Of a stretch of DNA of 64,000 bases, positions 2,022-47,741 are shown one piece after another. The DNA comes from an uncultured bacterium (GTDB lineage: Bacteria; Krumholzibacteriota; Krumholzibacteriia; Krumholzibacteriales; Krumholzibacteriaceae). The notes beneath the pieces were generated by a model. That model was not told the origin of the DNA. It saw only the letters and a list, made by a program, of their open reading frames with translations, and did not search any database. Made by a program: the position numbers and the translations under genes. Location of the stretch: contig CAWFAD010000012.1 in NCBI GenBank assembly GCA_963813815.1, positions 64,001 to 128,000 on the forward strand, given 5' to 3'. How positions within the stretch are numbered: position 1 is the first letter of the stretch; the number at the start of each line of letters is the position of its first letter.

Positions 2022-2049
2022 AAAAATCCCGGCCGCCGGGCGGCCGGGA
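2022..2049 (-). terminator. Rho-independent terminator after the por operon
   Basis: 10-bp stem tcccggccgc/gcggccggga followed by a U-tract on the minus strand (aaaaa at 2022-2026). Confidence 0.7.
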
Positions 2050-2076
2050 CGATTCGCGGACCCTTCGCGGCGGAGC

Positions 2077-2622
2077 CTATTCCCGCACTTCGGCGTACGC
2101 GCGCATGAACGATTTGAGGTTTCGCGGCCCGACGCGCCCAAAACGCTTCGTGAGGGGTTCCTCGATCGATTCGGGCTTGATGACGCCCGTCATCTTGACC
2201 GCCGCGCCGAGCATCGTCGTGTTCGTAATGGGGCGCCCGAGCTCCTCGACCGCGATTTTCGTCGCGTCGACCGTTGCGACCCGGATATCGGCGTAGCCGA
2301 ACTGTTTCTTGATCTCCTCGGGGCTCTTCGCCGTGTTGACGACGAGAACGCCGCCGGATTTCAGGCCCTTTCGGGGATTCGCGATCCGGAGGAGGCTCTG
2401 GTCGAGCACGATGACGACGTCCGGTTCGTTCACGGCGAACCGGGTCCGGAGAGGCGCATCGTCGACGCGGGAGAACGCGACGACCGGCGCGCCGCGCCGC
2501 TCCGGCCCGAAGCTCGGAAAGCTCTGCGCGTATCTGCCCTCGTTGATGACGGCGACGGCGAGCAACTCGGCGCTCGTCACCGCTCCCTGTCCGCCGCGTC
2601 CGTGAAATCTGATCTCCAGCAT
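2077..2622 (-). CDS. porC: Pyruvate/2-oxoacid:ferredoxin oxidoreductase gamma subunit
   Basis: EIRFHGRGGQGAVT, FPSFGPERRGAPV and NTTMLGA motifs. Confidence 0.9.
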   Translation of the reverse strand: MLEIRFHGRGGQGAVTSAELLAVAVINEGRYAQSFPSFGPERRGAPVVAFSRVDDAPLRTRFAVNEPDVVIVLDQSLLRIANPRKGLKSGGVLVVNTAKSPEEIKKQFGYADIRVATVDATKIAVEELGRPITNTTMLGAAVKMTGVIKPESIEEPLTKRFGRVGPRNLKSFMRAYAEVRE

Positions 2623-2629
2623 GTTCGTC

Positions 2630-3355
2630 CTACTTTTTTGTCGAACGGCAATCGACGCACGTGTCGAAATGATCTTCCGGAAGGTTCGCGATCTTCCGGA
2701 AATACTCGAGCTGTTTCACCGGGGCGAAATGCTTTCCGCAGACCTTGCATGCGGCCATCGGAAAATCCGTCTTCCAGATGCGCCGCACACCGTCGCGCTC
2801 CTCCATCGGAATGACGCCCACCGGACAGATATAGTGGCACGAGCCGCACGCGATGCAATCCTCCGGCGCCTCCTCGAACGGCGTCGCGACGGCGCGCGTG
2901 TCGCCGCGGCTCTTGAATCCGATCGCCGATACCCCCACGACCTCCCGGCAGACGCGAACGCACTGGCCGCAGAGGATGCACCCCTTGAAGTCGACCGGGA
3001 ACATGCTCTTCTCGATCCCGAGGCTCGAGGCGAGCTCGCGGAGGCGCGGATGCGTCGAGTTCCGCGAGAGGAGCAGGTGCAGAACGAGCCGCCGCACGTT
3101 CAGAACGCGCTCGGTCGAGGTATTCACCTCGAGCCCCTCGGCCACCTCGTGGATGCACGAAACGACGAGGCGCTGGCGCTTCTTGTGCGTAACCTCGACC
3201 ATGCAGAGCCGGCAGGCGCCGTACGGATGGAGCTCCTCGTTGCTGCAGAGGTTGGGGATGTCGATGTTGGCGTCGCGCGCGGCGTCGAGAATCGTCGTCC
3301 CCGCCGCGGCCGTCACCCGCCGTCCGTCGATCGTCAGTGTCACCTTGTCCGCCAT
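2630..3355 (-). CDS. NuoG/HydA N-terminal-like Fe-S subunit (BfuA-like; 2Fe-2S plus 4Fe-4S, no catalytic H-cluster or molybdopterin domain)
   Basis: Start MADKVTLTIDG; IPNLC...GACRLCMVEV...SC; CILCGQCVRVC; CIACGSCHYICP; C-terminal CKVC...CVDC. Confidence 0.85.
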   Translation of the reverse strand: MADKVTLTIDGRRVTAAAGTTILDAARDANIDIPNLCSNEELHPYGACRLCMVEVTHKKRQRLVVSCIHEVAEGLEVNTSTERVLNVRRLVLHLLLSRNSTHPRLRELASSLGIEKSMFPVDFKGCILCGQCVRVCREVVGVSAIGFKSRGDTRAVATPFEEAPEDCIACGSCHYICPVGVIPMEERDGVRRIWKTDFPMAACKVCGKHFAPVKQLEYFRKIANLPEDHFDTCVDCRSTKK

Positions 3356-3399
3356 GTCGGTTCCTTTGCCGGGGGCGGCGCGTCCCCGCGCCGCCATCG

Positions 3400-5250
3400 C
3401 TACGAAATGAGTATCGCGTCGAACTTGCAGGCCTCGAAACAGGCCCCGCACTTGATACACGTTTTCTGATCGATCGTATGAGCCTTTTTCTTCTCCCCCG
3501 TTGCCGCCTTCGTCGGGCATACTCGCGCGCACGCCGTGCATCCGGTGCAGGCGTCCGCCGCGACCGTGAAGGCGATGAGCTCCTTGCAGACGCCGGCCGG
3601 GCACTTCCGGTCGCGGATATGCGCGAGGTACTCGTCCTTGAAATGCTTGATGGTGCTCAGCACGGGGAACGGCGCCGTGCCCCCGAGGGCGCAGAGCGAG
3701 CCGTCGATGACCCCCTTGCCGATCCATTCGAGCAGATCGATATCGCTCTCCACTCCCTTGCCCGCGCAGATCCGGTCGAGAATGGCGCGCATCTGGTAGA
3801 CGCCCTCGCGGCACGGCGTGCACTTGCCGCAAGACTCCTGCTCGAGAAACTTGAGGAAATACCTGGCGACGTCCACCATGCAGGTGCGATCGTCCATGAC
3901 GATCATGCCGCCCGAGCCCATCATCGAGCCCACCTTCGAGAGCTCGTCGAAATCGACCGGCATGTCGAGATGCTGCTCGGGGATGCAGCCGCCCGAGGGA
4001 CCGCCCGTTTGTATCGCCTTGAACTTCCGGCCCTTCGGGATGCCGCCGCCGATGCCGAACACGATCTCGCGGAGGGTGATTCCCATGGGGACCTCAACGA
4101 GACCGGTGTTGTTGATCTTGCCGACGAGCGAGAAGATCTTCGTTCCCGTGCTCCCCGCGGTGCCGATCGAGGCGTACCAGTCGGCGCCCTTGCTGATGAT
4201 CGGCGGCACGTTCGCCCACGTTTCGACGTTGTTGAGGCAGGTCGGTTTGTCGTAGAGGCCCCGGTCGGTGGCGTGCACGTACTTCTGACGCGGCTCGCCG
4301 GCCCGCCCTTCGATCGAGGCGAAGAGCGCGGAGGATTCGCCGCAGACGAAGGCGCCGCCGCCGCGGTTGATCTTGATATCGAAGCTGAAATCCGTTCCGA
4401 GGATCCTTTCGCCGAGCAGCCCGTACGCGCGGGCGTTCTCGATCGCAGAGGTGATGTTCGTCACGGCGAGCGGATACTCGTTGCGCACGTAGATGTACCC
4501 GTTGCTCGAGCCGATCGCGAAGGCGCCGATGATCATCCCCTCGAGCACGCTGTGCGGATTGCCCTCGAGGAGGCTTCGATCCATGTAGGCGCCCGGATCC
4601 CCCTCGTCGGCGTTGCAGATGACGTACTTCGGCTCGCCCTCCGCCTTGGCGGTCGATTCCCATTTCCAGCCCGTCATGAAGCCGCCGCCGCCCCGTCCGC
4701 GAAGCTTCGCCCTCGTCACCTCGTTGATGATGTCCCCGGGCTTCATCGCGAGCGCCTTGGCGAGCGCCGCGTAGCCTCCGATGGCGACGTAGTCGTCGAT
4801 GCTCCGCGGATCGATCTGCCCGTTCATGCCGAAGATAAGCCGCATCTGCTTCCGGTAGAAGGGAACGTCGTGCTCGTGGAGGATTTTCTCCTTCGTCACC
4901 GGATCGCGGTACACGAGGCGGTCGATGATTTCGTCCTTGAGCACCGATTTCTCGATGATCTCGCCCGCGTCCTCGGTTTTCACGTGCTGGTAGAATATCT
5001 TCTTCGGCTGGATCACGACAAGCGGTCCGCGCTCGCAGAATCCGTGACAGCCGCTCGTGCGAATCTCGACCTTGTTTCCGAGCCCGCGCTTCTCGATCTC
5101 CGCGCGGAAGTTGTCGATGAGCTTCTGCGTACCGTACGCGAGGCATCCCGTGCCGGCGCATATCACGATGGTCGGCTTTCTCGGGTCGCGCGCGGACGCG
5201 AGCTTCTGCTGGAGCGTCGCGAGCTCTTTCGCCGATTTAAGCTTCTTCAT
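3400..5250 (-). CDS. NuoF/HydB-like NAD(H)/FMN subunit with extra Fe-S domains (BfuB-like)
   Basis: N-terminal 2Fe-2S (CAGTGC...GCHGFC), LRGRGGGGF, CNADEGDPGAYMDR, GAFVCGES, GGPSGG, ESCGKCTPCREG, HIRDRKCPAGVC and two C-terminal 4Fe-4S motifs. Confidence 0.93.
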   Translation of the reverse strand: MKKLKSAKELATLQQKLASARDPRKPTIVICAGTGCLAYGTQKLIDNFRAEIEKRGLGNKVEIRTSGCHGFCERGPLVVIQPKKIFYQHVKTEDAGEIIEKSVLKDEIIDRLVYRDPVTKEKILHEHDVPFYRKQMRLIFGMNGQIDPRSIDDYVAIGGYAALAKALAMKPGDIINEVTRAKLRGRGGGGFMTGWKWESTAKAEGEPKYVICNADEGDPGAYMDRSLLEGNPHSVLEGMIIGAFAIGSSNGYIYVRNEYPLAVTNITSAIENARAYGLLGERILGTDFSFDIKINRGGGAFVCGESSALFASIEGRAGEPRQKYVHATDRGLYDKPTCLNNVETWANVPPIISKGADWYASIGTAGSTGTKIFSLVGKINNTGLVEVPMGITLREIVFGIGGGIPKGRKFKAIQTGGPSGGCIPEQHLDMPVDFDELSKVGSMMGSGGMIVMDDRTCMVDVARYFLKFLEQESCGKCTPCREGVYQMRAILDRICAGKGVESDIDLLEWIGKGVIDGSLCALGGTAPFPVLSTIKHFKDEYLAHIRDRKCPAGVCKELIAFTVAADACTGCTACARVCPTKAATGEKKKAHTIDQKTCIKCGACFEACKFDAILIS

Positions 5251-5746
5251 CGGTTTCTACCTTTTTCCCGAGGGCGGCGAGCACCTTGTTCGTCTTGGCG
5301 ATCGTGATTTGGCCGTGATACTCGTCGTTCACGACGAGTATGGGGCCGAGCGCACAGGCGCCGAGGCAGTTCACCGTCTCAAAGCTGAACTCTCGATCGC
5401 TCGTCGTTTCGCCCGAAGCGATGCCGAGCGTGCGTGCGATGTGGTCAGCGATCTGCGGGGCCCCGCGAACGTGGCACGCCGTTCCGAGACAGAGGCTCAG
5501 GCGGTAGCGGCCTTTCGGCGCGAGACTGAACGCGCGGTAGAAGGTCGCGAGGTGGTACACGAGACTCCGCGTCACGCCGAGACTCTCGACGAGAGCGTCG
5601 AGCGCCTCTCTCGGGAGGTAATTGAACTCCCGCTGGATATCCTGCATGATGGGGATCACGAAGCTCTTGTCGCGCCCGTACCGCGCGACGATCTCGTCGA
5701 CCTTCGCTCCCACGGCATCGTTTCGTTTCGATCGGCTCGCTTCCAT
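5237..5746 (-). CDS. NuoE/HydC-like 2Fe-2S subunit (BfuC-like)
   Basis: ATFYRAF, CLGTACHVRG and NCLGACALGP motifs. Confidence 0.92.
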   Translation of the reverse strand: MEASRSKRNDAVGAKVDEIVARYGRDKSFVIPIMQDIQREFNYLPREALDALVESLGVTRSLVYHLATFYRAFSLAPKGRYRLSLCLGTACHVRGAPQIADHIARTLGIASGETTSDREFSFETVNCLGACALGPILVVNDEYHGQITIAKTNKVLAALGKKVETDEEA

Positions 5747-5795
5747 GGCTCGCTCTTTCCTGAGGTCGTCCTCTCTGCATCGACTCCCGCGCGCG

Positions 5796-6719
5796 CTAGA
5801 GCTCGGCTCTCGCGCGGAGCTTCTCCCATTCCCCCGTGACGCGACTCTGTATCTTCTCGATGAGCTCGGGCGTCAGATGGCGGAACCGCCCCTGAGGCTT
5901 GAGGTAGTCCGCGACCGGCCGCAGCGCGGGAACGTCGACCGTGATTCGGTACCGCCCCTTCTCGACTTCGTAGAGCGGGAACACACCCGTCTCGACGGCC
6001 AGCCGCCCGATCCAGATCGCCTTTTCGCTCGGAAGCCCCCATCCCGTCGGACACACGGAGAGTATATGAATGTAGGCGGGGCCGCCGGCCTTCGCCGCCT
6101 TCTCGACCTTCTTCATGAGATCGAAGGGGTAGCTCGAGCACGCCGTCGCGACGTAGGGGATGCCGTGCGCGGCCGCGATCTCCGGCATGTTCTTCTTCCA
6201 CGTGACCTGCCCGGCCTTTATCTTGCCCGCCGGCGAGGTGGTCGTCGAGGCGCCGAACGGCGTTCCCGAGGATCGCTGCACGCCGGTGTTCATGTAGGCC
6301 TCGTTGTCGTAGCAGACATAGATGAAGCGATGCCCTCGCTCGAATGCGCCCGAAAGCGCCTGCAACCCGATGTCGCTCGTTGCGCCGTCGCCGCCCATGC
6401 CGAGGAAGATCGTCCCCTTCTCGGGGATCGCGCCCTTGCGCACGAGCGCGCGGTAGGCGCCCTCGGCCCCCGTCGCGACCGCCGCGGCGTTTTCGAACGC
6501 GACGTGAATCCAGGGCACTCGCCAGTTGGTGAAGGGGAACGGCGAGGAGATGATCTCCATGCACCCCGTGGCCGAAGCGACGACGACGTTCTGCCCGAGC
6601 GCCTTTGCGACGAGCCGGACGGCGAGCGCTTCCGCGCACCCCTGACAGGCGCGATGTCCCGGGGCGAAGTACTCGCGCTTCGTGACGAGCCTCGAGGCGT
6701 ATACGTTGAGCGATTCCAT
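5796..6719 (-). CDS. porB: Pyruvate:ferredoxin oxidoreductase beta subunit (TPP-binding)
   Basis: [22 protein letters not shown]...[13 protein letters not shown] and CPTGW motifs. Confidence 0.92.
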
Positions 6720-7903
6720 TACTCTCTCACCCCGTAGAAGATATAATCTTCCTGCCGGATCGGCGCGCCGGAAGCGACGAGCTCCTCCGTTTTCGCGTAC
6801 ATCTTGATGAAGTCTTCCGGCGTAACGTCGCGGCCGGCGAATCCCGCGAGGAAATTGGTGATCGCCGGCTTCTGCTTCTGCTCATAGAGCGCCGCGCGGA
6901 TCTCGCTCGCCACCGGCCCGCCGGGACCGCCGTACGATATCGCCCGGTCGATAACGATGAGCTTTTTCACGCCCTTCACCGCGTCGCGGAGCTCGTCGAA
7001 CGGAAACGGGCGCCAGAGGCGAAGCCGTATCTGCCCGACCGGCTTTCCCTGCTCGCGAAGGCGGTCGACCGCGATCGACGCGGTCTCCCCGAAGCTTCCC
7101 ATCGTGACGATCGCCGTCTCGGCTCCGTCCATCTTGTAGGTTTCAACCGACTTGTACGCGCGACCGGTGATCTTCGCGATCTCGTCCCACGCCTTCATGA
7201 TGACCGGCCTCGCGGCGAGGAGCGCCGCGTCCTGCGCCTTTTTCGTTTCGGCAAAAATGTTCGGAATGCCGAAGGCGCCCAGCGTGACGGGAGCGTCGGG
7301 AGTGAGCACGTTGACCGGTTTGAAGGGAGGAAGGTAACGCGCGGCCTGCTCCTTGTCCCAGTACTCGATGGCCTCGATGACGTGCGTCACGATGAACCCG
7401 TCGATGTTGATCATGACCGGTATCGAGACCGCCGGATCTTCGGCGACGCGAAAGGCGTAGAGCACGTGGTCGAAGAGCTCCTGCCCGTTGTCGGCGAACA
7501 CCTGTATCCAGCCGCAGTCGCGCACCGACATCACGTCGGTGTGATCGTTCCAGATGCTCAGGGGTCCCGAAAGCGAGCGGTTCGCGAGGATCATCACGAT
7601 CGGGAGCCGCAGGCTCGCCGCGATGAACACGATCTCGTTCATGAGGGCGAGCCCCTGCGCGCTCGTGCAGGTGAAGGTGCGCGCCCCCATCGCGGAGGAG
7701 CCGCAGCACACGCTCATCGCCGAATGTTCCGATTCGACCGGTATGAACTCGGCGTCGAGCTCTCCCTCGGCGACGAGCTCGGCGAGGTGCTCGACGATGT
7801 GCGTCTGCGGGGTGATCGGATACGCCGCGACGACGTCGACGTTCGCCAGGGCGACCGCCTCCGCCGCGGCGATCGAGTTTTCGATTCCGACGCGTTTCGG
7901 CAT
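6719..7903 (-). CDS. porA: Pyruvate:ferredoxin oxidoreductase alpha subunit
   Basis: [26 protein letters not shown] and IWNDH motifs. Confidence 0.92.
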
Positions 7904-8209
7904 TTATTCCTCCGCCTCCTCCGCCATCGAGATGCAGCCCGTGATGCATTCCTGCGCGCAGATGCCGCAACCCTTGCAGTAGTAGAGGTCGGCCTCGAAG
8001 TAGCCTTCCTCATTCTTGCGGACCGCCGCGTCGGGACAGAAGAGGTAACAGACGCCGCACTTGACGCAGCGGGAATGATCCCACAGGGGCCGGATGGAGC
8101 GCCAGTCGCCGGTCCTATACTGCGCGGCGTTGCCGGCGTCGGAGACCGCGCAGCCGATCTCGATGTCTTTCCACCCGAGTTCTTCTTCCGATTTGACCGG
8201 CTTTTTCAT
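7904..8209 (-). CDS. porD: Pyruvate:ferredoxin oxidoreductase delta subunit (2x4Fe-4S)
   Basis: TGDWRSIRP, CVKCGVCYLFCPD and YCKGCGICAQEC motifs. Confidence 0.92.
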   Translation of the reverse strand: MKKPVKSEEELGWKDIEIGCAVSDAGNAAQYRTGDWRSIRPLWDHSRCVKCGVCYLFCPDAAVRKNEEGYFEADLYYCKGCGICAQECITGCISMAEEAEE

Positions 8210-8356
8210 GTCACTCCCCCGCGCTTCAGGGACGAAAAGCCCTCCCGACCCGATTCCCCGCCGTGAACGAAAAAAATTAGGCGAAATATACTCTCTTCGC
8301 CGCGCACCTTCAAGCGGAAACGGCGGGGGCCGCGCCCCCGCCGTCCGCCTGCGAGC

Positions 8357-10315
8357 CTACTGGCGTTCCTCGAGGAGATGCTCGACGACGTGCGGGTCGG
8401 CGAGCGTCGTCGTATCGCCGACCTCGGTGCTGCCGGTCGCGATGACTTTGAGGATGCGACGCATGATCTTGCCGCTGCGCGTCTTCGGGAGCGCGTCGGC
8501 GAACTGTATCTTGTCGGGCTTCGCGATGGGCCCGATCATTTTCGAGACGTGGTTGCGAAGCTCTTCCTTGAGCTTGTCGCTCTTGTCGAACCCGCCGGTG
8601 AGCGTGACGAACGCGTAGAGCCCCTCGCCCTTGATCTCGTGCGGCATCGGCACGACCGCCGCCTCGGCGACCGCCTCGTGGCTCACGAGGGCGCTCTCGA
8701 CTTCCATCGTTCCGATCCGGTGGCCCGAGACGTTGATCACGTCGTCGACGCGGCCCATGAGCCAGAAATAGCCGTCCTCGTCCTTGCGCGCGCCGTCGCC
8801 CGTGAAGTACACGCCCTTGTAGCGGCTGTAGTACTGATCCTGGTACCGCTGGTCGTCGCCCCACACCGTGCGGAGCTGTCCCGGCCACGGCTTCTCGATG
8901 ATGAGATAGCCGCCTTCGTTCGTGTCGCACGGCGAGCCGTCCTCGCGGACGACCTTGGGGAACACGCCCGGGAACGGCAGCGTCGCTGAGCCCGGCTTCA
9001 GCGGGAACGCGCCGGGAAGCGGCGTGATGAGGATGCCGCCCGTTTCCGTCTGCCACCACGTGTCGACGATCGGGCAGCGTTCCTTGCCGATCACCCGGTA
9101 GTACCACATCCAGGCCTCGGGATTGATCGGCTCGCCGACCGAGCCGAGGAGGCGCAGGCTCGAGAGGTCGTTCTTCGCCGGCCATTCGTCGCCGTCGCGC
9201 GCGATCGCGCGGATGGCGGTCGGCGCGGTGTAGAAGACCGACACTTTGTACTTCGAAACAACCTTCCAGAAACGATCCGGCTCGGGATAGCTCGGAACGC
9301 CCTCGAACATGACGGTCGTCGCGCCGTTCGAGAGCGGCCCGTACACGATGTACGAGTGGCCGGTGATCCAGCCGATATCGGCGGTGCACCAGTAGATGTC
9401 TTCCTCGCGCAGATCGAAGATGAGCTTGTTCGTCATGGTCACGTACACGAGATAGCCGCCCGTCGTGTGGACGACGCCCTTCGGCTTGCCCGTCGTGCCG
9501 CTCGTGTAGAGAATGAACGAGAGGTCCTCGGCTTCGACGTGCGTCGGCTCGCAGGTTTCGGAGACCTTCGCCATCTCCTCGTGCCACCAGAAGTCTTTGC
9601 CCTTGTTCATCGTGACATCGAGCCCCGTGCGCTTGACGACGATCACGTGCTCGATCGTCGGGCAGGCGCCGAGAACGGAATCGGCTCCGGTCTTGAGCGG
9701 CACAGCCTTGCCCCGGCGGTAGCTCCCGTCGCTCGTGATGAGCATCTTGGCGCCCGCGTCGATGATGCGGTCCTTGAGCGATTCGGCGCTGAAGCCGCCG
9801 AACACGATCGAGTGGATCGCGCCGATGCGCGTGCAGGCGAGCATCGCGATCGCGAGCTCGGGGATCATCGGAAGGTACAGGTTGACCCGATCGCCCTTCT
9901 TGATCCCGTGCGCCTTGAGGACGTTCGCGAACTTGCTGACCTCGCGATGGAGCTCCTTGTACGTGTACTTTTTCGAATCGGTGAGCGGCTCGCCTTCCCA
10001 GATGAGGGCGATCTTGTCGCCCTTCGTCTTGAGGTGCCGGTCGAGGCAGTTATAAGAGATGTTGGTCGTGCCGCCGGAGAACCATTTCACGAAGGGGGCT
10101 TTGCCGTAGTCGAGCACCTTGTCCCACTTCTTGAACCAGTGAATACAGTTCGCCTGCTCGGCCCAGAAACCCTCGAGATCCTTCTCGGATTTGCCGTAGA
10201 GCTTCTTGTACTCATCCATGCTCTTGATGTGAGCCTTCTCGACGAAGCTCTTCGGGGGATTGAAAACCCGGCGCTCATCGAGCATCGAAGTGATGGTTTT
10301 CCTCTCCGCTGCCAT
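8357..10315 (-). CDS. acs: Acetyl-CoA synthetase (AMP-forming)
   Basis: [45 protein letters not shown] and [12 protein letters not shown] motifs. Confidence 0.95.
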
Positions 10316-10580
10316 CTGCTACCTCCTGTAGGGTTTCCGTTCGCTCGCAGGATTATCGTTTCAGTCGGATACATGGTCGCGCAAAACGCGGCACTAAACG
10401 CTTGAATTTATTGAGATACTCCGCAAATGTCAAGACAAAATCGGTTTGGCGAATGGGGGTTCCGCAAACCTCTGGAAACGAATCCCCAGCCGGTATATAC
10501 TCTCACACTGCGGCGTTCGAGCGGCCCGTACCGGGCATGCAACGCCCTCCGCGAAACGGGACGCCGCGCCGCGAACGACC

Positions 10581-13500
10581 ATGCCGAAAAAGAGCGCATT
10601 ACGCCTTCCGCTCGCGGCCGCGATCCGGCCCTGCGCCGCCGTCGCCGCTCTGGCCATCGCCGCCGCGCCGGGGCCGCTTTTCGCCGTGGGCCACGCGCGG
10701 GATATCCGTTTCACGCAGATCTCCATCGAACAGGGGCTCTCGCAGAGCATCGTCGAGTGCATCATCCAGGACCGGCGCGGATTCATATGGATGGCCACCG
10801 AGGACGGGCTCAACAAGTTCGACGGGTACGATTTCACGATTCTCCGCCACGATCCCGACGATCCGAACAGCCTCGTCTACAACCAGCTCCTCTCCCTCTG
10901 CGAGGACCGCGACGGCCGCATATGGATCGGAACGTTCCAGGGCGGCCTCAACCGCTACGATCCCGCGACGAGGCGCTTTACCCTCTACACGCACGCGATC
11001 GGCGATTCCACGAGCATCAGCCACAATTCGATAAACGCGATCGTCGATACGAAGGCCGGGGACCTCTGGATCGGCACCGATAACGGGCTCAACCGCTACG
11101 AGCGCCGAACGGATTCCTTCACCCGCTTTTACGGCGACTCGACCGGCGAGAACGGACCCGGCCACAGCGGAATCCGCTGCATCCTCGAGGATCGCGGCGG
11201 CGGGGTCTGGATCGGCACGAACGGCGGCGGCCTCAGCCGTTACGACCCGGCGAGCGGCCGATGGAGGCGCTACGCGCACGATCCCGGCGATCCCGGAAGC
11301 CTCAGCCACAACACGGTGCGCGCGATCCGCGAGGACCATGAGGGCGCGCTCTGGGTCGGCACCGTCGGCGGCGGACTCAACCGGCTCGACCGCCGGACGG
11401 ATCGCTTCACCCGCTACCGGCACGACCAGGACGATCCGAAGAGTCTCGCTCACGATCAGGTGTTCGATATCCTCGAGGACCGCACAGGCGCCCTTTGGAT
11501 CGGCACCAACGGCGGAGGGCTCGACCTCTTCGATCGCGAGACCGGCGGTTTCATTCACTATCGGAACGATCCGAACGATCCGAACAGCTTGAGCTTCGAC
11601 GAGATTCACGACATCTTCGAGGATCGATCGGGGATTCTGTGGCTCGGCACCTACGGGGGCGGGGCGAACAAGTTCGACACGAAGCGAAAGAGCTTCGTTC
11701 TCTACCGCCCGAATCCGGCGGATCCGGCGAGCGGGCTCAGCGCCGAGATCGTGTGGTCGATCAGCGAGGACGAGCGGGGAATCCTGTGGATCGGCACGCA
11801 CGGAGGCGGGCTCAACCGCCTCGACCGCGCAACCGGGCGCTACCGGCACTACCGCCACGATCCGGGCGATCCAACGAGCCTGAGCTCCGACATTGTGCGG
11901 ATCGTGTACCGGGACCGTTCCGGAGCCTTCTGGATCGGCACGCACGGAGGCGGCCTCTGCAGGTTCGACCGCTCGAGCGGCCGCTTCACCGCCTATCGTC
12001 ACGACCCATCCGATCCGTCGAGCCTGAGCCATGACGAGATCAGATCGATATACGAGGATCGGCAGGGCGCGCTCTGGCTCGGCACGAACGGCGGCGGTCT
12101 CAACCGCATGGACCGCGCGACCGGCGTTTTCCGCCGCTACCGGTCCGATCCCAATGATTCAACGAGCCTCAGCAACGATTTCGTGCGCGCGATCTACGAG
12201 GACGACTCGGGGGGCTTCTGGATCGGCACGCAGGGGGGAGGGCTCAACCGCCTCGACCGCTCGACGGGCGTATTCACGCCGTTCCGGGCGAACCGGCTCG
12301 ACGCGGGCGGCATCAGCAACGATTACATCTTCTCCATCTTCGAGGATTCGCGGCGAGGTATGTGGATCGCCACCTGGGGCGGCGGGTTCAACAGGTTCGA
12401 CCGGCAGACGGGGACCTTCAGGCACTATACGATGAAGGACGGCCTCCCCAACAACTCCGTCTACGGCATGCTCGAGGACGAGGACGGCAACCTCTGGCTC
12501 AGCACGAACCGCGGGATATCGAGATTCGACCCACGGACGGAAACCTTCAAGAACTACACCGACGAGGACGGGCTCCAGAGCAACGAGTTCAACGGAGGGG
12601 CGTTCTTCAAGAGCCCCGCCGGGGAGATGTTCTTCGGCGGGATCCACGGCTTCAACTCTTTCTTTCCGGGGGACATCAGGGACAATTCCTTCATCCCTCC
12701 CGTCATCATCACCTCGCTCTCGGTGCTGAACCGGCCGGCGGAGCTCGACACGCCGATCACGGATATTCATACGCTCCGGCTCTCGTATCGCGATTACCTT
12801 TTTTCGTTCGAGTTCGCCGCGCTCGATTTCACGGCGCCGGACAAGAATCAATACGCCTACCTGATGGAGGGCCTCGATCGCGATTGGATAGCGACCCCCG
12901 CGGGAAGGCGCCACGCGAGCTACACGACCCTGCCCCCGGCCGCTACGTCTTCAAGGTGAAGGGCTCGAACAACGACGGCGTATGGAACGAGACGCCCGCG
13001 ACGATATCGATCGTCATCACGCCTCCCTACTGGCGAACGCTCTGGTTTCGAAAAATGATATACTTTTTTTGCTGAAAGGCTGGCGCCGTTGTACCTGTAC
13101 CTTCGGTACCATGTCGAATGTGGCATGCTGTTGGCCGGTTACAGTGCTTCAAATTCAATGATGATTCATACCACGATCATCAGACATGACCGCGCTGCAT
13201 AGCCTAGCCACACGTGGTCTGCAGCGGCGTAAGGTCACGCGAATCAAAAGCACAAAAAATGTGCAACTTTTAGCATCCAGAGGTTTGGATATTTCCACAG
13301 TACATAATTGAGGGGATCATCTTCATGCACCACTCTTGGCAGCCGCAAGGTCATCCCGGGTGGTATCACGCTGCAGTGTGGTACTTATATGATATTACTT
13401 TTTTTTGGCTGAAAGGCTGGCGCCGTTGTACCCCTGTACCCTTTCAGGTACCATGTCCGAATGTGGCATGCTGTTGGCCCGGTTAACCAGTGCTTCAAAT

Positions 13501-27825: not shown

Positions 27826-29334
27826 CTATTTCATCTTCGGAAGCTTCACGAGCCCCTTCTTCTGCAGGAGCTGGAACTTGCTGCGGGACTCCGTGATCAT
27901 CCTGTCGGCCTTGCTGATGAGCTGGTCCCAGGTGAGGTCGATGCGCGCCACGCCCTGCTCGACCGCCTTGCGGCCCACGGCCGCCGCCTCGCGCGGATAG
28001 ACCTCCACTTCGTCCATCGTCGGGATGAGGTAATCCTCGCGAAGCCCCTTGTCCTCGGCGACGCGCGCGAGCTCGCGGGCGGCCGCGATGCACATCTCGT
28101 CGGTGATCGTGCGGGCCATAACGTCGAGCGTTCCGCGGAAGATGCCCGGGAAACCGAGGGAGTTGTTGACCTGGTTCGGGAAGTCGCTACGGCCGGTGGC
28201 GACGACCCTCGCGCCCGCCTCCTTCGCCTCCCACGGCCAGATCTCGGGGATCGGGTTGGCGCAGACGAACACGATCGCGTCCTTCGCCATCCGCGCGATC
28301 CATTCCTTTTTGATCGTGTCGGGGCCCTGCTTCGAAAGGGCGATGAGCACGTCGGCCCCCTCGATCGCGCGCGGCACGTCTCCCGTTCTCCCCTCGCCGT
28401 TCGTCTTCTGCGCCATCTCCCATTTCTCTTTCCAATCCTGCTTGAGCTCCTCCTCGCGGCCGAGGTGGAGGATCCCCTTGCTGTCGCACATGATGACGTT
28501 CTTCGGCGAAACGCCGGCGAGCATGATCATGCGGGCGATGCAGATGTTCGCGGCCCCCGCGCCCACCATCGTCACCTTGACCTTCGAGATATCCTTGCCG
28601 ACGATCTTCACCGCGTTGATGAGACCCGCTACGGTAACTGCGGCCGTGCCCTGCTGGTCGTCGTGCCACACGGGGATGCGGCATTCGCGCCGGAGCGTAT
28701 CGAGAACGCGGAAGCACTTGGGCTGCGAAATATCCTCGAGGTTGATGCCGCCGAAGGAGGGCTGCAGGAGCTTCACGAACTCGATGAGCTTGTCCGGGTC
28801 CTTCGTATCGACGCAGATCGGGAAGGCGTCGACCCCGCCGAGATACTTGAAGAGCATCCCCTTGCCCTCCATGACCGGCAGGCCCGCCTCGGGACCGATG
28901 TCGCCGAGTCCGAGAACGCGCGTGCCGTCCGAGACCACGGCGACGAAGTTCCCCTTGTTCGTGTGCTCGAAAACCTTTTCGGGGTTATCGCGGATATCGA
29001 GGCACGGCTTCGCGACTCCGGGGGTGTACCAGATCGCGAAATCGTCGAAGCTGCGGATGCAGGCCTTCGGCATGATCTCGATCTTCCCCTTGTAGAAGGG
29101 GTGCATGATCATGGCGTCGATCCCGGGCTGCTTGGCCTTCTCGACGAGCTCTTCCTTCGTGACTGGTTTCATGATCTTCGGAGCGGGCTTTTTCGGCGCC
29201 GCTTTCCGCGGGGCCGGTTTCTTGGCGGGCTTCGCCGCCTTTTTCGCGGCCTTCTTCGGGGACTTCTTCACGGCCTTTTTCGGCGTTTTCTTCGCCGGCT
29301 TTTTCTTCGAGGCCTTCGCCTTCTTCGGGCTCAT
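27826..29334 (-). CDS. NAD(P)-dependent malic enzyme with a Lys/Ala/Pro-rich N-terminal extension
   Basis: YTPGVA, VSDGTRVLGLGDIGP, VMEGK, INLEDI, HDDQQGTA, GAGAA and ATGRSDFPNQVNN motifs; GGAGGT RBS before the ATG at 29334. Confidence 0.92.
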   Translation of the reverse strand: MSPKKAKASKKKPAKKTPKKAVKKSPKKAAKKAAKPAKKPAPRKAAPKKPAPKIMKPVTKEELVEKAKQPGIDAMIMHPFYKGKIEIMPKACIRSFDDFAIWYTPGVAKPCLDIRDNPEKVFEHTNKGNFVAVVSDGTRVLGLGDIGPEAGLPVMEGKGMLFKYLGGVDAFPICVDTKDPDKLIEFVKLLQPSFGGINLEDISQPKCFRVLDTLRRECRIPVWHDDQQGTAAVTVAGLINAVKIVGKDISKVKVTMVGAGAANICIARMIMLAGVSPKNVIMCDSKGILHLGREEELKQDWKEKWEMAQKTNGEGRTGDVPRAIEGADVLIALSKQGPDTIKKEWIARMAKDAIVFVCANPIPEIWPWEAKEAGARVVATGRSDFPNQVNNSLGFPGIFRGTLDVMARTITDEMCIAAARELARVAEDKGLREDYLIPTMDEVEVYPREAAAVGRKAVEQGVARIDLTWDQLISKADRMITESRSKFQLLQKKGLVKLPKMK

Positions 29335-29401
29335 CGATCTACCTCCCGGGGTCAATCCCGACTTCGGAACGCTCGCCGCTCCATATCCGATTCGAACGCT
29401 A

Positions 29402-29950
29402 TTATTTCTCGAGGAGCTCCGCCGCGGCCTTCAGCCCCTCGTCGAACGCCTTCATGTTGAGCTCTTCGGTCCCTTTCGGCACGCGGGCGAGAATGGCCTT
29501 GCGGACCGATTCCTCGGACGCGGCCTGCGAGATTTTCGTGAGAATCCCGAGGGCAACGATGTTCGTCACGACCGCCTTGCCGACCTTCTTCAGCGCGATC
29601 TCGGTGATCGGCGCCTCGTAGAGCCGGTAGTCTCCCTTCGGCAGCTCCTTGACGAGCCCCGAATCGACGATGAGAACGCCGCCGGCCTTGAGGTCCCCGC
29701 TGTACTTCGTGCACGAGACCTGCGTGAGCGCGAGCAGCAGATCGAGGTTCAGCACCTTCGGATAATCGATGTCGCCGTCGCTCGTGACGACCTCGGCCTT
29801 GCTCGCCCCGCCGCGCGCCTCGGGGCCGTAGCTCTGCGTCTGCACGGCGTTGCGCCCGTCGTATATCACGACCGCCTCCGCCAGGATCTTGCCCGCGAGG
29901 ATGAGCCCCTGCCCGCCGGAGCCGCTCAGCCTCATTTCATATCTGTCCAT
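29402..29950 (-). CDS. korC: 2-oxoacid:ferredoxin oxidoreductase gamma subunit (operon 1)
   Basis: GSGGQGLILAG and QSYGPEARGGAS motifs. Confidence 0.88.
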   Translation of the reverse strand: MDRYEMRLSGSGGQGLILAGKILAEAVVIYDGRNAVQTQSYGPEARGGASKAEVVTSDGDIDYPKVLNLDLLLALTQVSCTKYSGDLKAGGVLIVDSGLVKELPKGDYRLYEAPITEIALKKVGKAVVTNIVALGILTKISQAASEESVRKAILARVPKGTEELNMKAFDEGLKAAAELLEK

Positions 29951-29968
29951 GCGAAGCTCCTGTTTCCG

Positions 29969-30793
29969 TCAGTCCTTCGATTTCTCGGTTTTCAGCCTTT
30001 GGATGAGCTTGTCGTACTCGGCGCAGAACTCCGGTTTCTCGACGTCCCACAGGACTCCGGACGCGATCTTGCCCACGCGCTCGTCCTCGGCCATCTTGTC
30101 GAGCTTGTCCTTCGTAACGACGTTGTCCTTGAGCCAGTTCATGAGATCGACGGGGTTGGCGAGCTTGTTCCGCCGCCCGTACGCCGTCGGACACGGCGAG
30201 AGGATCTCGACCACGGAGAATCCCTTCTTCGAGAGCGCCGCCGTGATGAGCTTGTCGAGCTGCTGGACGTGGTACACGTCGCCGAGCGCCACGAACGAGG
30301 CCCCCGCCGCCTGCGCGAGCCCCGCGATGTTGAACGACGGCTCGAGGTTCCCGAACGGCGCCGTCGAAGCGTTCTTGCCGCGCGGGGTCGTCGGGGACAC
30401 CTGCCCTCCCGTCATCCCGTAGATGAAGTTGTTGTAGAGGAGCACCGTGAGATCGATGTTGCGTCTCGCCGCATGGATGTAATGGTTCCCGCCGATGGCG
30501 GTCGCGTCCCCGTCCCCCGTCACGACGATCACGTGGAGCTTCGGGCTGGCGAGCTTTACCCCCGTGGCGAAGGCGATCGCGCGCCCGTGCGTCGTATGCA
30601 GCGTGTTGATATCGATGTATCCGGGAGTGCGGCTCGAGCATCCGATCCCCGACACCATCGCGGTCTCGTCCTTCGGGATCCCGAGCTTCTTGAGGGAGCG
30701 GATGAGCGACTTGAGGACGATCCCGTCCCCGCACCCCGAGCACCAGATATGAGGCAGGTTCCGCTCGCGCACGTATTCGAGGTAGTTGAACAT
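29969..30793 (-). CDS. korB: 2-oxoacid:ferredoxin oxidoreductase beta subunit (operon 1)
   Basis: WCSGCGDG, SGIGCS, HTTHGRA, GDGD...IGGNH and YGMTGGQ motifs; start MFNYLEY. Confidence 0.9.
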   Translation of the reverse strand: MFNYLEYVRERNLPHIWCSGCGDGIVLKSLIRSLKKLGIPKDETAMVSGIGCSSRTPGYIDINTLHTTHGRAIAFATGVKLASPKLHVIVVTGDGDATAIGGNHYIHAARRNIDLTVLLYNNFIYGMTGGQVSPTTPRGKNASTAPFGNLEPSFNIAGLAQAAGASFVALGDVYHVQQLDKLITAALSKKGFSVVEILSPCPTAYGRRNKLANPVDLMNWLKDNVVTKDKLDKMAEDERVGKIASGVLWDVEKPEFCAEYDKLIQRLKTEKSKD

Positions 30794-30795
30794 CG

Positions 30796-31942
30796 TCAGA
30801 ACGCCTCCTTGACGGCGTCGACGATCTGTTTCGGGGTGATCGGGTCTCCATCGACGCGGTTCACCCGCCTGATTTCGGCGCGGCATTTCGCCGCGAGCTC
30901 GACCTCGCGCGCCATCTGCCCGAGGTTCATTTCGGCGCAGATGAACGCCTTGACCTTCCCCGCGATATCGAGTATCTCCTCCGCCGGGAACGGCCAGATC
31001 GTCGTCGGCTCGAAGAGACCGACCTTGATTCCCGCCTCGCGGCACTCCTTGACGGCACGCTTCGCGGACCGGGCGACCCCGCCGTACGCGAAGACGCAGA
31101 TCTTCGCGTCATCGAGCTCGAACGTCTTCCAGCGCATGATCTTCGCGCGGTGCCGCTCGATCTTGTCGGTGAGGTGCAGGATGTTCGCCTCGATCTTCTT
31201 CGCGTCGTTCGTCGGGAAGCCCGTTTCGTCATGGCAGAGACCGGTCACGTTGTACCGGTATCCCGTGCCGAAATTCGCGAGAACCGGGATGCCGTCCTCG
31301 TTCTTCGCGTACGGGAGATACTTGCCGGGGAGGAACGGACGGCTGCTTGCGATTGACGATCCGGACGCTCGAGTGGTCAGGGAGGTACATCCGCTCCGTC
31401 ATGTGGCCGACGATCTCGTCGAAGAGCAGTATGACGGGGGTCATGTACGTCTCGGCGAGGTTGAACGCCTCGATCGTCTGCTCGAACATCTCTTGCGCCG
31501 AGGATGCGGTGAGGGCGATGACGCCGTGGTCCCCGTGGCTTCCCCACCGGGCCTGCTGCATGTCCATCTGGGCGGGAAGGGTCGGCGTGCCGGTGTCGGG
31601 CCGCCCCGCTGCACGTCGACGACGACGCACGGCACCTCCGCCATGACCGGCGTGCCCGAGATTCTCCTGCTTGAGGCTGAAGCCGGGACCCGAGGTCGCC
31701 GTGAGCGCCTTGGCCCCGGTGAGCGAGGCTCCGATGACGGCGCCCATCGCCGCGATCTCGTCCTCCATCTGGATGAATTTCCCCCCGACCCGCGGAAGCT
31801 TCCTCACGAGGTACTCCGCGATCTCGGAGCTCGGGGTGATCGGATACCCGGCGAAGAAGCGGCAGCCGGCCCAGATCGCCCCTTCGGCGCAGGCGTCGTT
31901 CCCCTGCATCATGACCACCGTGCCGGTCGGACTCTTTGACAA
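30796..31942 (-). CDS. korA: 2-oxoacid:ferredoxin oxidoreductase alpha subunit (operon 1); frameshifted as assembled
   Basis: QGNDACAEGA, AGYPITPSSEI, QMEDEIA and ATSGPGFSL, then MAEVPCVVVDVQRGGP, QARWGSHGD and TGLCHDE...AEMNLGQ in different frames (shifts near 31650, 31600 and 31320). TTG start with an AAGGAG RBS. Confidence 0.85.
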
Positions 31943-32054
31943 CGCCGTCGTCTCCTTTTTCGGGTCGCCCCGCCGCGGGGACGCCCCCATACCCGTCTCG
32001 ACTCCCCGGGGACGGCGAGGGGCAAAAAAATAAGGACCCCCTCGCGGAGAGTCC

Positions 32055-32273
32055 TCATTCAACCGTTATAGCGAAATCAGGACACCTGAGCTCGCACAGG
32101 TTGCACTTGATGCAGTCATCGGGTCGTGCAACCTTGACCTTGCCGCCCTCCATCTCGAGGACGGCCTTGGGGCAAAAGGCCACGCAGATCTCGCACCCCT
32201 TGCACCACTTCAGGTTGACCTTTATTATCGCTTTCTTTTTTTCTGCAGCCTGGCTCTCGGCCACCCCGACCAC
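32055..32273 (-). CDS. korD: 2x4Fe-4S ferredoxin / oxidoreductase delta subunit (operon 1)
   Basis: WCKGCEICVAFCP and CIKCNLCELRCPDFAI motifs. Confidence 0.88.
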   Translation of the reverse strand: MVGVAESQAAEKKKAIIKVNLKWCKGCEICVAFCPKAVLEMEGGKVKVARPDDCIKCNLCELRCPDFAITVE

Positions 32274-32447
32274 TTCCGATCAGGTTCTATGCAAGCGCTT
32301 GAAAAGCGATTTATCCCGTGAAAGGTACGGTCTGAAATTGGAACGAATATATACCACCCCTCGTTTCAATGGCAAGCCTTTTTGGGCCTATAGCAGACTT
32401 TTTTCAGGATACTGGAAGGGATTCGGGCGTCTTTTTCGGCCATTTCC

Positions 32448-32476
32448 TTGACGTAAGAGGCGTTCTTTCATATTAT
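32448..32476 (+). promoter_or_regulatory. Sigma70-type promoter TTGACG-17-TATTAT, 6 nt before the ATG at 32483 (leaderless)
   Basis: Read directly from 32448-32485; there is no Shine-Dalgarno between the -10 and the ATG. Confidence 0.6.
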
Positions 32477-32482
32477 TCACGC

Positions 32483-32701
32483 ATGCATTCGATCAAGTTG
32501 CGCACGGAATGGTGCAAGGCGTGCAAGATCTGCATCCAGATCTGCCCGCGCCAGGTCTACGTACAGGGGAAGGACCTCAACGCAAAAGGATACAAGGTCA
32601 CGAAGGTCGAGAAGCTCGAGGAGTGCACGGGATGCAAGCTCTGCGAGCTCATGTGCCCCGATCTCGTGATCACCGTCGAAGATGCCGAAAAAAACGGATA
32701 A
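32483..32701 (+). CDS. korD: 2x4Fe-4S ferredoxin / oxidoreductase delta subunit (operon 2)
   Basis: WCKACKICIQICP and CTGCKLCELMCPDLVI motifs. Confidence 0.88.
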   Translation: MHSIKLRTEWCKACKICIQICPRQVYVQGKDLNAKGYKVTKVEKLEECTGCKLCELMCPDLVITVEDAEKNG

Positions 32702-33815
32702 GGCGCTCATGGCGCCCAAGAAATACTTCATGCAGGGAAACCTCGCCTGCGCCGAGGGAGCGCTCGCGGCTGGGTGCCGATTCTACGCGGGATACCCCAT
32801 CACTCCCTCTTCCGAGATCATGGAGCACCTCGCGCGGCGGATGACCGAGGTCGGGGGAACGTTCGCGCAGATGGAGGACGAGATCGCCTCGATTTGCGCC
32901 GTCATCGGCTCCTCGTGGGGGGGCGTGAAATCGATGACCGCCACCTCGGGCCCCGGCCTTTCCCTCATGATCGAGGGGCTCGGGTACGCCTTCATGACGG
33001 AGACGCCATGCGTCATCATCAACGTGCAGCGGCAGGGCCCCGCCACGGGGAAGGCGACGAGGCCCGGCCAGGGAGACATCATGCAGGCGCGCTGGGGAGC
33101 TCACGGCGACCATCGCGTCATCGCCCTTTCTCCGTGGTCGTGCCAGGAGATGTACGATCTCACGATCGAGTCCTTCAATCTCTCCGAGCGCTACCGGGTC
33201 CCGGTCATACTCCTCGCCGACGAGATCGTCGGACACATCAAGGAGAGCTTCACCGTCCGCCCCGAGGTCGAGACGTTCGATCGCAACCGCGAGGGGGGCA
33301 AGGCGCCGTTCGGAGCCGAGCTCGTCCCCCCGATGCCGGCGTTCGGCGACGGACAGGCGCTCCTCGTGACCGGCTCGACGCATAACGATTGGGGAGTCCG
33401 CAAGGTGTCCGATCCCGACGTGCAGGAGAAACTCACGAAGCGCATCTGCGACAAGATAGACCTCAACCGGCACGAGATCGTGAAGGTCGACCGGCATTTC
33501 ACCGAGGATTGCGACACGCTGCTCATCGCCTTCGGCATCACGGCGCGCAGCGCCTACTACGCGGCGCGCGCGCTCCGGAGCGAGGGGCGCCGGGTCGGCC
33601 TGCTGCGCCCGATCAGCATCTGGCCGCTCCCCGAGGACGAGATCAGGGCCGCCGCCGAAACGGCCTCCCGGGTGATCGTCTGCGAGATGAACCAGGGACA
33701 GCTCGTTCACGAGGTCGAACGGCTCCTCTGCGGAAAGGAGATCGCGGGGCTTTTCAAGAGCCGCGGCGAACCGATCTACCCTCAGGAGATCATCGCAAAG
33801 GTGGTGGCGCAGTGA
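32682..33815 (+). CDS. korA: 2-oxoacid:ferredoxin oxidoreductase alpha subunit (operon 2)
   Basis: QGNLACAEGA, AGYPITPSSEI, QMEDEIAS, ATSGPGLSL, QARWGAHGD and CEMNQGQ motifs. Confidence 0.9.
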   Translation: MPKKTDKALMAPKKYFMQGNLACAEGALAAGCRFYAGYPITPSSEIMEHLARRMTEVGGTFAQMEDEIASICAVIGSSWGGVKSMTATSGPGLSLMIEGLGYAFMTETPCVIINVQRQGPATGKATRPGQGDIMQARWGAHGDHRVIALSPWSCQEMYDLTIESFNLSERYRVPVILLADEIVGHIKESFTVRPEVETFDRNREGGKAPFGAELVPPMPAFGDGQALLVTGSTHNDWGVRKVSDPDVQEKLTKRICDKIDLNRHEIVKVDRHFTEDCDTLLIAFGITARSAYYAARALRSEGRRVGLLRPISIWPLPEDEIRAAAETASRVIVCEMNQGQLVHEVERLLCGKEIAGLFKSRGEPIYPQEIIAKVVAQ

Positions 33816-47694: not shown

Positions 47695-47741
47695 GGCTTG
47701 TGTCCCGGGCGGCCCCGGAGGGGGGCCTCCTTCGCGCGGCG

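What the first reader, a model, noticed from the sequence alone, without database searches (positions are those of the whole stretch)
2077..10315. Pyruvate:ferredoxin oxidoreductase operon with a HydABC/NuoEFG-type module inserted inside it, next to acs: candidate electron-bifurcating pyruvate synthase/oxidase
Seen: the gene order on the minus strand is acs, porD-porA-porB-[nuoE-like, nuoF-like, short nuoG-like]-porC, then a terminator. The gamma subunit is pushed behind the three diaphorase genes with only short gaps or overlaps. The A subunit has only Fe-S motifs and no H-cluster or molybdopterin domain, so the catalytic partner must be another protein. The B subunit carries an N-terminal 2Fe-2S, GAYM, GAFVCGE, GGPSG, TCMVD...HIRDRKCPAGVC and two C-terminal 4Fe-4S. 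Established: these features characterise bifurcating HydB/BfuB subunits, and Bfu modules are known to pair with varied catalytic partners. Inference: a 7-subunit complex couples pyruvate and acetyl-CoA + CO2 interconversion to both NAD(H) and ferredoxin. With the adjacent acs it could be an acetate-assimilation route.
Basis: partly seen in the sequence, partly recalled or inferred. Interest (0 to 1): 0.75.

Follow-up and report, generated by a model that had tools for sequence, protein, structure and literature searches.

The report
Bifurcating pyruvate enzyme replaced standard one
Seven tightly packed genes encode a pyruvate:ferredoxin oxidoreductase plus an NADH/ferredoxin "electron-splitting" module, matching an enzyme type predicted in 2022 but apparently never purified; in this lineage the cluster was likely imported from sulfate-reducer relatives and likely replaced the ordinary one-piece pyruvate enzyme that all 35 other searched genomes of the order carry.

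Summary
The cluster matches "Por-Bfu", predicted by Schut et al. 2022 (PMC9304861); I found no purification. The scan noted Por-Bfu before on other genomes. All testable BfuB/BfuC bifurcation signatures are present. BfuA is Type 2, with a zinc finger and no C-terminal helix, as published for Por-Bfu.

New here: (1) the operon occurs in at least 69 of 401 sampled genomes of a deltaproteobacterial phylum, with porC first. (2) In this Krumholzibacteriota order it is confined to two genera (17 of 17 genomes), which lack the one-piece PFOR found in the other 35 of 35; trees indicate transfer of the whole cassette. (3) It sits in an ancestral acs–glmM slot, but likely has its own promoter. (4) In 3 loci BfuA stays with POR without BfuBC, pointing to BfuA as the adaptor.

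porC-last is lineage-specific and known from ordinary PFORs. Complex formation and bifurcation are untested. Direction is open; energetics favour pyruvate oxidation over acetate assimilation.

The parts
10405..10433 (-). sigma-70-like promoter candidate upstream of acs (TTGACA-17-TAAATT)
   Evidence: consensus scan, 10 of 12 matches; function not tested
8357..10315 (-). acs, AMP-forming acetyl-CoA synthetase, 652 aa; native to the order, neighbour rather than subunit
   Evidence: TIGR02188 1030 bits, over cut-off; 70-93% identical orthologues across the order
8314..8348 (-). G+C-rich hairpin after acs (possible weak terminator)
   Evidence: predicted fold, similar hairpin in all 6 loci examined; the terminator scan did not list it
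8285..8313 (-). promoter candidate for the por-bfu operon (TTGAAG-17-TATATT)
   Evidence: TTGA..-17-TATATT kept in 5 of 5 genus loci while the spacer varies, and a similar site in the sister genus
7904..8209 (-). porD, delta subunit, 2x[4Fe-4S], 101 aa
   Evidence: TIGR02179 over cut-off; 8 Cys invariant in 27 of 27
6719..7903 (-). porA, alpha subunit, 394 aa; Thr in YPITP and Arg in NRS as in PFORs, unlike oxalate oxidoreductase
   Evidence: best NCBIfam model PorA_Arch 468 bits, under its 550 cut-off; best PDB hit 9BT4 PFOR
5796..6719 (-). porB, beta subunit (TPP, proximal [4Fe-4S]), 307 aa
   Evidence: NF008819 pyruvate synthase PorB 414 bits, over cut-off 405; best PDB hit 9BT4
5237..5746 (-). 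bfuC (NuoE/HydC-like), C1 [2Fe-2S]: C86, C91, C127, C131
   Evidence: PF01257; ligands 27 of 27
3400..5250 (-). bfuB (NuoF/HydB-like), FMN/NAD, sites B1-B5, bifurcation signatures A221, M223, F301, GGPSG
   Evidence: best PDB hit WorB of bifurcating WorABCSL (9MQX)
2630..3355 (-). bfuA, Type 2, 241 aa: A1 [2Fe-2S], A2 and A4 [4Fe-4S], C-terminal four-Cys zinc-finger motif, no A3, no catalytic domain, no C-terminal adaptor helix
   Evidence: best sequence and fold hit WorA 9MQX_A; compare
2077..2622 (-). porC, gamma (CoA-binding) subunit, 181 aa, last in the operon
   Evidence: TIGR02175 over cut-off; 7 bases after bfuA
2026..2050 (-). intrinsic-terminator-like hairpin with T run closing the operon
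   Evidence: 11-pair stem

Best explanation
[quoted passage not shown] Shown: the genes, their cofactor ligands and signatures, their conserved linkage, and their distribution complementary to the one-piece PFOR. Inferred from the WorABCSL structure: electrons pass from TPP through the PorB and PorD clusters to BfuA A4-A2-A1, then B1/FMN, where pairs are split to NAD+ and, through C1 and B3/B4, to ferredoxin (2 pyruvate + 2 CoA + NAD+ + 2 Fd-ox <-> 2 acetyl-CoA + 2 CO2 + NADH + 2 Fd-red). BfuA, probably through its zinc-finger end, is the inferred docking piece. The reaction should be reversible. I judge net oxidation somewhat more likely here (about 55:45), since it is downhill by about 20 kJ/mol and would keep running when ferredoxin is highly reduced.
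For: All testable Bfu signatures met, at a constant +20 offset from T. sibiricus NfnB (A201/M203/F281/GGPSG396-400). Best structural relatives are proven bifurcating enzymes. BfuA matches the published Por-Bfu description, zinc finger without helix. Operon kept in 67 of 80 fetched loci. POR and BfuB trees agree and nest the genus among deltaproteobacterial copies (AU p 0.002 and 0.0006), so both halves travelled together. bfuCBA is enclosed by por genes in 13 of 13 genus genomes with sequence there. BfuA stays with POR in 3 loci lacking BfuBC. One-piece PFOR in 35 of 35 other genomes of the order and 0 of 17 carriers. A free 57-aa 2x[4Fe-4S] ferredoxin is encoded.
Against: I found no biochemistry for any Por-Bfu. 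Sequence signatures predict bifurcation but do not prove it. PorA falls under the NCBIfam PorA cut-off, so pyruvate specificity is inferred. The genome has a second four-gene POR-type operon with a GltD-PorD fusion, and a PorA of that similarity class occurs across the order; it could carry pyruvate oxidation instead. In Dehalococcoides, where Por-Bfu was predicted, POR is modelled as synthetic only, and a PFOR lies near acs across this order; both favour synthesis.
Confidence: 0.5

Rival explanations
1. Same bifurcating complex, but used mainly as a confurcating pyruvate synthase for acetate assimilation (Acs makes acetyl-CoA; NADH plus reduced ferredoxin add CO2; PPDK pulls pyruvate on).'s physiological reading.
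For: PFOR lies within 7 kb of acs in 21 of 23 same-contig cases in sister genera, and two unrelated PFOR types occupy the same acs-glmM slot. No isocitrate lyase, CO dehydrogenase/acetyl-CoA synthase or E1 dehydrogenase found in this 91%-complete genome; PPDK/PEP-synthase family, Rnf and an Mbh-like complex present. Dehalococcoides model; Schut et al..
Against: Confurcating synthesis costs +17 to +29 kJ/mol against 0 to +15 with ferredoxin alone. acs and por-bfu likely have separate promoters. No canonical acetate kinase in 52 of 52 genomes of the order, only weak partial matches, and a membrane pyrophosphatase is present, so Acs may make acetate and ATP as in Syntrophus aciditrophicus (abstract).
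Confidence: 0.25
2. POR and BfuABC are co-expressed but separate or loosely joined: an ordinary four-subunit POR reduces free ferredoxin, and BfuABC balances the ferredoxin and NAD pools, or acts as a plain diaphorase giving an NAD-linked pyruvate dehydrogenase.
For: BfuA lacks the C-terminal helix that anchors WorA to its catalytic partner. PorD looks like an ordinary delta subunit. No binding was shown.
Against: Non-bifurcating homologues lack B2-B5 and the A/M, F and GGPSG signatures that are all present here. BfuA has no substrate site of its own. Linkage survives transfer between phyla and gene rearrangement.
Confidence: 0.13
3. Inverted wiring: POR docks on the low-potential B3/B4 branch and a mid-potential donor feeds BfuA, so that bifurcation to NAD+ drives acetyl-CoA carboxylation.
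For: It would make synthesis thermodynamically sensible and explain why a -500 mV reaction is joined to a bifurcating module, which Schut et al. call unclear. PorD is ferredoxin-like and acidic.
Against: BfuA, not BfuB, stays with POR when BfuBC is lost or replaced (3 loci). The BfuB B3/B4 domain closely matches those of enzymes that bind free ferredoxin. The free PorD of 9BT4 is also rich in acidic residues in the aligned stretch.
Confidence: 0.07
4. The oxoacid is not pyruvate (2-oxoisovalerate, phenylglyoxylate or similar).
For: Four-subunit POR/VOR families are close, and PorA is under its cut-off.
Against: PorB passes the pyruvate synthase cut-off; PorA and PorD score best on pyruvate models; oxalate-type residues are absent. 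The cassette is mutually exclusive with the one-piece PFOR.
Confidence: 0.05

Closest known systems
Por-Bfu (Por-BfuABCDEFG), predicted Type 2 member of the BfuABC family; Schut et al. 2022, PMC9304861
   Same: Four POR subunits plus BfuABC; Type 2 BfuA without A3; zinc finger without C-terminal helix (PMC12318220); all BfuB signatures.
   Different: Reported from 12 sequences in Chloroflexi and Proteobacteria; here in Krumholzibacteriota, with porC last, next to acs, and complementary to a one-piece PFOR. I could not see the paper's gene-order figure.
WorABCSL of Acetomicrobium mobile (PDB 9MQX; PMC12318220), shown to bifurcate
   Same: Best PDB match for BfuA and BfuB; same A1/A2/A4 plus zinc-finger layout; low-potential third substrate.
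   Different: Tungsten aldehyde oxidoreductase partner joined by a WorA C-terminal helix and a WorS nanowire; both are absent here.
Four-subunit PFOR of PDB 9BT4 (the Methanosarcina acetivorans enzyme; organism recalled, consistent)
   Same: Best PDB match for PorA, PorB and PorD; same Thr/Arg substrate-site residues.
   Different: Works with free ferredoxin and has no Bfu module.
Non-bifurcating NAD-linked modules (NuoEFG/Nqo1-3, HoxFU, S. wolfei Hyd1ABC)
   Same: Homologous FMN/NADH core and B1 cluster.
   Different: They lack the extra clusters and carry T/S, K/A and Y in place of A221, M223 and F301.

Membership tests
BfuABC family | BfuB with FMN domain, SLBB, B1 [4Fe-4S] and C-terminal B3/B4 [4Fe-4S] | tested here: met
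   Pfam PF01512, PF10531 (weak, under cut-off), PF10589, Fer4; 12 Cys ligands 27 of 27
BfuABC family | B2/Zn site: three Cys and one His | tested here: met
   C457, H544, C550, C555 in 27 of 27; the variable fifth position is C495 here, Cys in 4 of 27
BfuABC family | N-terminal B5 [2Fe-2S] in BfuB and C1 [2Fe-2S] in BfuC | tested here: met
   C31, C36 (25 of 27), C68, C72 (27 of 27); BfuC four Cys 27 of 27
BfuABC family | Bifurcation signatures A/E-x-M, F near FMN, GGPSG | tested here: met
   A221 and M223 27 of 27, F301 27 of 27, GGPSG 25 of 27 including this one (definitions)
BfuABC family | Strictly coupled reduction of NAD+ and ferredoxin | not testable with these tools
   needs purified enzyme
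Type 2 Bfu | BfuA with A1, A2, A4, lacking A3, A5 cluster and any catalytic domain | tested here: met
Por-Bfu | Four POR subunit genes clustered with bfuABC | tested here: met
Por-Bfu | BfuA zinc finger present, C-terminal helix absent | tested here: met
   C203, C206, C233, C236 in 27 of 27; here the protein ends 5 residues after C236 (definition)
Por-Bfu | BfuB in published clades 35, 44 or 45 | tested here: inconclusive
Por-Bfu | One seven-subunit complex | not testable with these tools
Four-subunit pyruvate:ferredoxin oxidoreductase | TPP and proximal cluster motifs, PFOR-type Thr/Arg, pyruvate-specific model scores | tested here: inconclusive
   motifs met and PorB over cut-off; PorA, PorC and PorD best on pyruvate models but under equivalog cut-offs
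Non-bifurcating NuoEFG/HoxEFU diaphorase | Lacks B2-B5; T/S, K/S/A and Y at the signature positions | tested here: not met

The most novel reading that the evidence does not exclude
The cassette is a bifurcation-powered pyruvate synthase with inverted wiring: a mid-potential donor enters at BfuA, NAD+ takes the high-potential pair, and the low-potential pair goes through B3/B4 straight into POR to fix CO2 on acetyl-CoA from the neighbouring Acs. A lineage would have swapped its ordinary PFOR for an enzyme that makes its own low-potential electrons.
Probability: 0.07. Interest if true: 0.8.

Novelty: new member of a known kind. Interest (0 to 1): 0.38.

Why it matters
Por-Bfu is a predicted enzyme for which I found no purification. 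This locus adds genetic support that it is a real, portable unit: POR and Bfu genes moved between phyla together, stayed together through rearrangement, and are mutually exclusive with the ordinary one-piece PFOR across an order. The type is much more common than the 12 sequences first reported (at least 69 of 401 sampled genomes of one phylum). If bifurcation is confirmed, one of the most central anaerobic reactions would be wired to both NAD and ferredoxin, which changes energy budgets for these bacteria. The compact seven-gene operon is a convenient expression target.

Tried and rejected
Complex prediction of PorD with BfuA was not available, so binding was not modelled. Inter-subunit covariation on 67 paired loci (effective number 29) was underpowered: top z-scores for BfuA-POR pairs (5.0-6.4) did not stand out from other pairs (4.9-7.6), no verdict. 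Charge complementarity (BfuA zinc-finger region +5, PorD -6) was dropped because the free PorD of 9BT4 is also acidic in the aligned stretch. No RNA holder was listed, so expression and co-transcription were not examined. Neighbours of the deltaproteobacterial operons were housekeeping-type genes (identified by eye as dnaX/ybaB/recR, no family scan) and said nothing on direction. Two Dehalococcoides papers (Tang 2009, Johnson 2008) were not held and a locus-tag search found nothing, so gene order there is unverified. The first BfuB tree was only the quick version; I relied on smaller careful trees. Searches used a truncated bfuA; one search repeated Pfam with the right coordinates. 'Module inserted inside the operon' was rejected in favour of porC relocation.
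Full report
OBSERVATION. The eight genes are on the minus strand in the order given: acs 8357-10315, porD 7904-8209, porA 6719-7903, porB 5796-6719, bfuC 5237-5746, bfuB 3400-5250, bfuA 2630-3355, porC 2077-2622. From porD to porC the gaps are 0, -1, 49, -14, 44 and 7 bases, and an 11-pair hairpin with a T run follows at 2026-2050. Between acs and porD lie 147 bases holding a G+C-rich hairpin and a TTGA..-17-TATATT site that is kept in 5 of 5 genus loci while the spacer changes. The por-bfu genes therefore likely have their own promoter (inference). Close relatives are titled Krumholzibacteriota.

ANATOMY. PorB passes the NCBIfam pyruvate synthase cut-off; PorA, PorC and PorD score best on pyruvate-type models but under the equivalog cut-offs. 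The best solved relative of PorA, PorB and PorD is the four-subunit PFOR 9BT4, and PorA keeps the PFOR-type Thr and Arg where oxalate oxidoreductase differs. BfuB has all ligands for B1, B2/Zn, B3, B4 and B5, and BfuC for C1 (27 complete loci). The signatures A221, M223, F301 and GGPSG 416-420 sit at a constant +20 offset from those named for T. sibiricus NfnB and match the bifurcating side of published comparisons. BfuA has A1, A2, A4 and a four-Cys zinc-finger motif, no A3 and no catalytic domain, and ends just after the last Cys. Its best sequence and fold match is WorA of the bifurcating WorABCSL (model pLDDT 84), and BfuB's best match is WorB.

WHAT IS KNOWN. Schut et al. 2022 (PMC9304861; I read the abstract, section 4 part 1, section 5 parts 1-2, section 6 part 1, passages and the supplement's text; figures were not visible) predicted Por-Bfu from 12 sequences in Chloroflexi and Proteobacteria, called it uncharacterised, and suggested gluconeogenic pyruvate synthesis. 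The WorABCSL paper (PMC12318220; passages and section 7) says Por-Bfu A subunits have the zinc finger but lack the C-terminal helix, exactly as here. The term Por-Bfu occurs in only these 2 papers of the library. Searches (listings) showed no purification and no report from Krumholzibacteriota; subscription journals are not covered. A 2026 PFOR review (PMC13768988, passages) has no 'Bfu' in its text and notes that porD-A-B-C order occurs in an ordinary PFOR. Passages of PMC11406978 and PMC13689815 added nothing on Por-Bfu. PMC7311640 (passages, section 17) and PMC12018979 (passages) gave the signatures. The scan has noted Por-Bfu on other genomes; I had reached this reading before seeing those notes.

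DISTRIBUTION. In a sample of 401 genomes from the phylum of G210 (record title Thermodesulfobacteriota; Desulfobacterota in GTDB, recalled), 153 had a BfuA-like match. I fetched 80 of the 150 listed matches, chosen for score and upstream contig length. 67 show porC-D-A-B-bfuC-B-A, 4 are cut by contig ends but show por genes, 3 are variants, 4 are too short to tell and 2 have no por genes; none has porC last. With G208 and G210 that is at least 69 of 401. None of the 80 has a close acs beside it; 6 have a distant AMP ligase (28-42%). In the 3 variants POR keeps BfuA while BfuBC is missing (L170) or replaced by a GltD-like flavoprotein with a B1-type cluster domain (L157, L172). This is the best genetic hint that BfuA is the piece that contacts POR.

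HISTORY IN THIS LINEAGE. Among 208 genomes of the window's phylum, full-length BfuA orthologues (58-91% identity, one partial at 73%) occur only in its own genus. Among 52 genomes of the order, PorA at 74% or more is in 14 of the 17 genomes of two genera, and the other 3 have the BfuA orthologue. The one-piece nifJ-type PFOR (TIGR02176, whole or in contig-cut pieces) is in 35 of 35 other genomes and 0 of these 17; several of the 17 are only 61-84% complete, and kin are not independent, so this is one evolutionary event. acs is native. In 14 fetched sister-genus loci, acs is followed by glmM in 9 and by the one-piece PFOR in 5, in either orientation; overall that PFOR is within 7 kb of acs in 21 of 23 same-contig cases. 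Trees of PorA+PorB (19 rows) and BfuB (20 rows), using 18 of the 27 complete loci and own-genome paralogues as roots, both place the genus with three deltaproteobacterial loci (100/100 and 100/99), and AU tests reject keeping the deltaproteobacterial copies together (p 0.002 and 0.0006; LG+G4, long outgroup branches). Inference: the whole cassette was imported, settled in the acs-glmM slot, porC moved to the end, and the one-piece PFOR was lost. Chloroflexota copies were not in the trees.

HOW IT LIKELY WORKS. By analogy with WorABCSL, electrons from TPP leave through PorB and PorD, enter BfuA at A4, run A2-A1-B1 to FMN, and split to NAD+ and to ferredoxin through C1 and B3/B4. All of this is inferred. 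With the potentials of Schut's Table 1, confurcating synthesis costs +17 to +29 kJ per pyruvate against 0 to +15 with ferredoxin alone; oxidation gains the same amount and could reduce ferredoxin far below -500 mV. The 91%-complete genome has Rnf, an Mbh-like complex, Mvh-Hdr-like genes, PPDK-family genes, pyruvate kinase, malic enzyme, ADP-forming acyl-CoA synthetase homologues and a membrane pyrophosphatase. No E1 dehydrogenase, CO dehydrogenase/acetyl-CoA synthase, [FeFe] hydrogenase, isocitrate lyase or canonical acetate kinase was found (Mbh and Mvh-Hdr names read from ORF starts by eye). AMP-forming Acs makes acetate and ATP in Syntrophus aciditrophicus (PMC4992975, abstract), and the phylum's type genome is described as a likely fermenter (bioRxiv 2020.09.22.307553, passages). 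These points favour oxidation. Against that, POR is the only route to pyruvate in the Dehalococcoides model (PMC2930330, passages and section 11; that these are the Por-Bfu genes is my assumption), the acs-PFOR neighbourhood is old, and a second POR-type operon with a GltD-PorD fusion could handle oxidation. Direction stays open, about 55:45 for oxidation.

VERDICT. Real, well conserved and correctly recognised, but a new member of an already predicted kind. The added value is the evidence that Por-Bfu is common, moves as one unit, appears to have replaced the standard PFOR in a lineage, and keeps BfuA as its constant partner. Binding, bifurcation, substrate and direction need the bench. Interest 0.38.

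Noticed in passing
G000:C7:338744-343060 (L051:5745-10100): Second four-gene POR/VOR-type operon in which PorD is fused to a GltD/NfnL-like FAD protein (PRK12771 over cut-off): a candidate NAD(P)-linked 2-oxoacid oxidoreductase. PorA hits of the same 40-44% class occur across the order.
   Followed up: partly
L157:7103-9031, L172:7084-9006: por operons where BfuBC is replaced by a single 640-aa protein (NuoF-type 4Fe-4S domain + Fer4_20 + GltD-like FAD domain) while BfuA is kept: swappable output module.
   Followed up: partly
L170 (G240:C75:1400-13600): porC-D-A-B followed directly by bfuA, with no bfuC or bfuB in the fetched stretch.
   Followed up: partly
window about 46600-49600 (G000:C12:110610-113613) and G000:C16:478289-484333: Two further Bfu-type trios in the genome; the first has order B-C-A, the second has a 1234-aa A subunit.
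   Followed up: partly
L001:1144-2829, L103, L123-L130: A CitF-like gene (citrate lyase alpha family) lies divergently upstream of acs in 10 related loci, often between acs and the one-piece PFOR; in the window a beta-propeller sensor-like gene (10446-12959) stands there instead.
   Followed up: partly
window 27826-35111: Malic enzyme gene followed by two further 2-oxoacid:ferredoxin oxidoreductase clusters (Kor/Vor-like) on opposite strands.
   Followed up: no
L173:1145-3600 (G000:C16): The only acetate-kinase-family hit is a butyrate-kinase-like domain joined to a phosphate-acyltransferase-like domain (names by eye), split over two overlapping frames in this assembly; about 800-aa open frames in most relatives. 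No canonical AckA in 52 genomes of the order.
   Followed up: partly
G000:C5:41443-47834: Hdr-Mvh-like cluster whose [NiFe] large subunit has one in-frame TGA, possibly selenocysteine.
   Followed up: no
window bfuB residue C495: Cys at the variable fifth B2 position (4 of 27 loci), as in the NiFe-Bfu enzyme that holds a [2Fe-2S] there instead of zinc.
   Followed up: no
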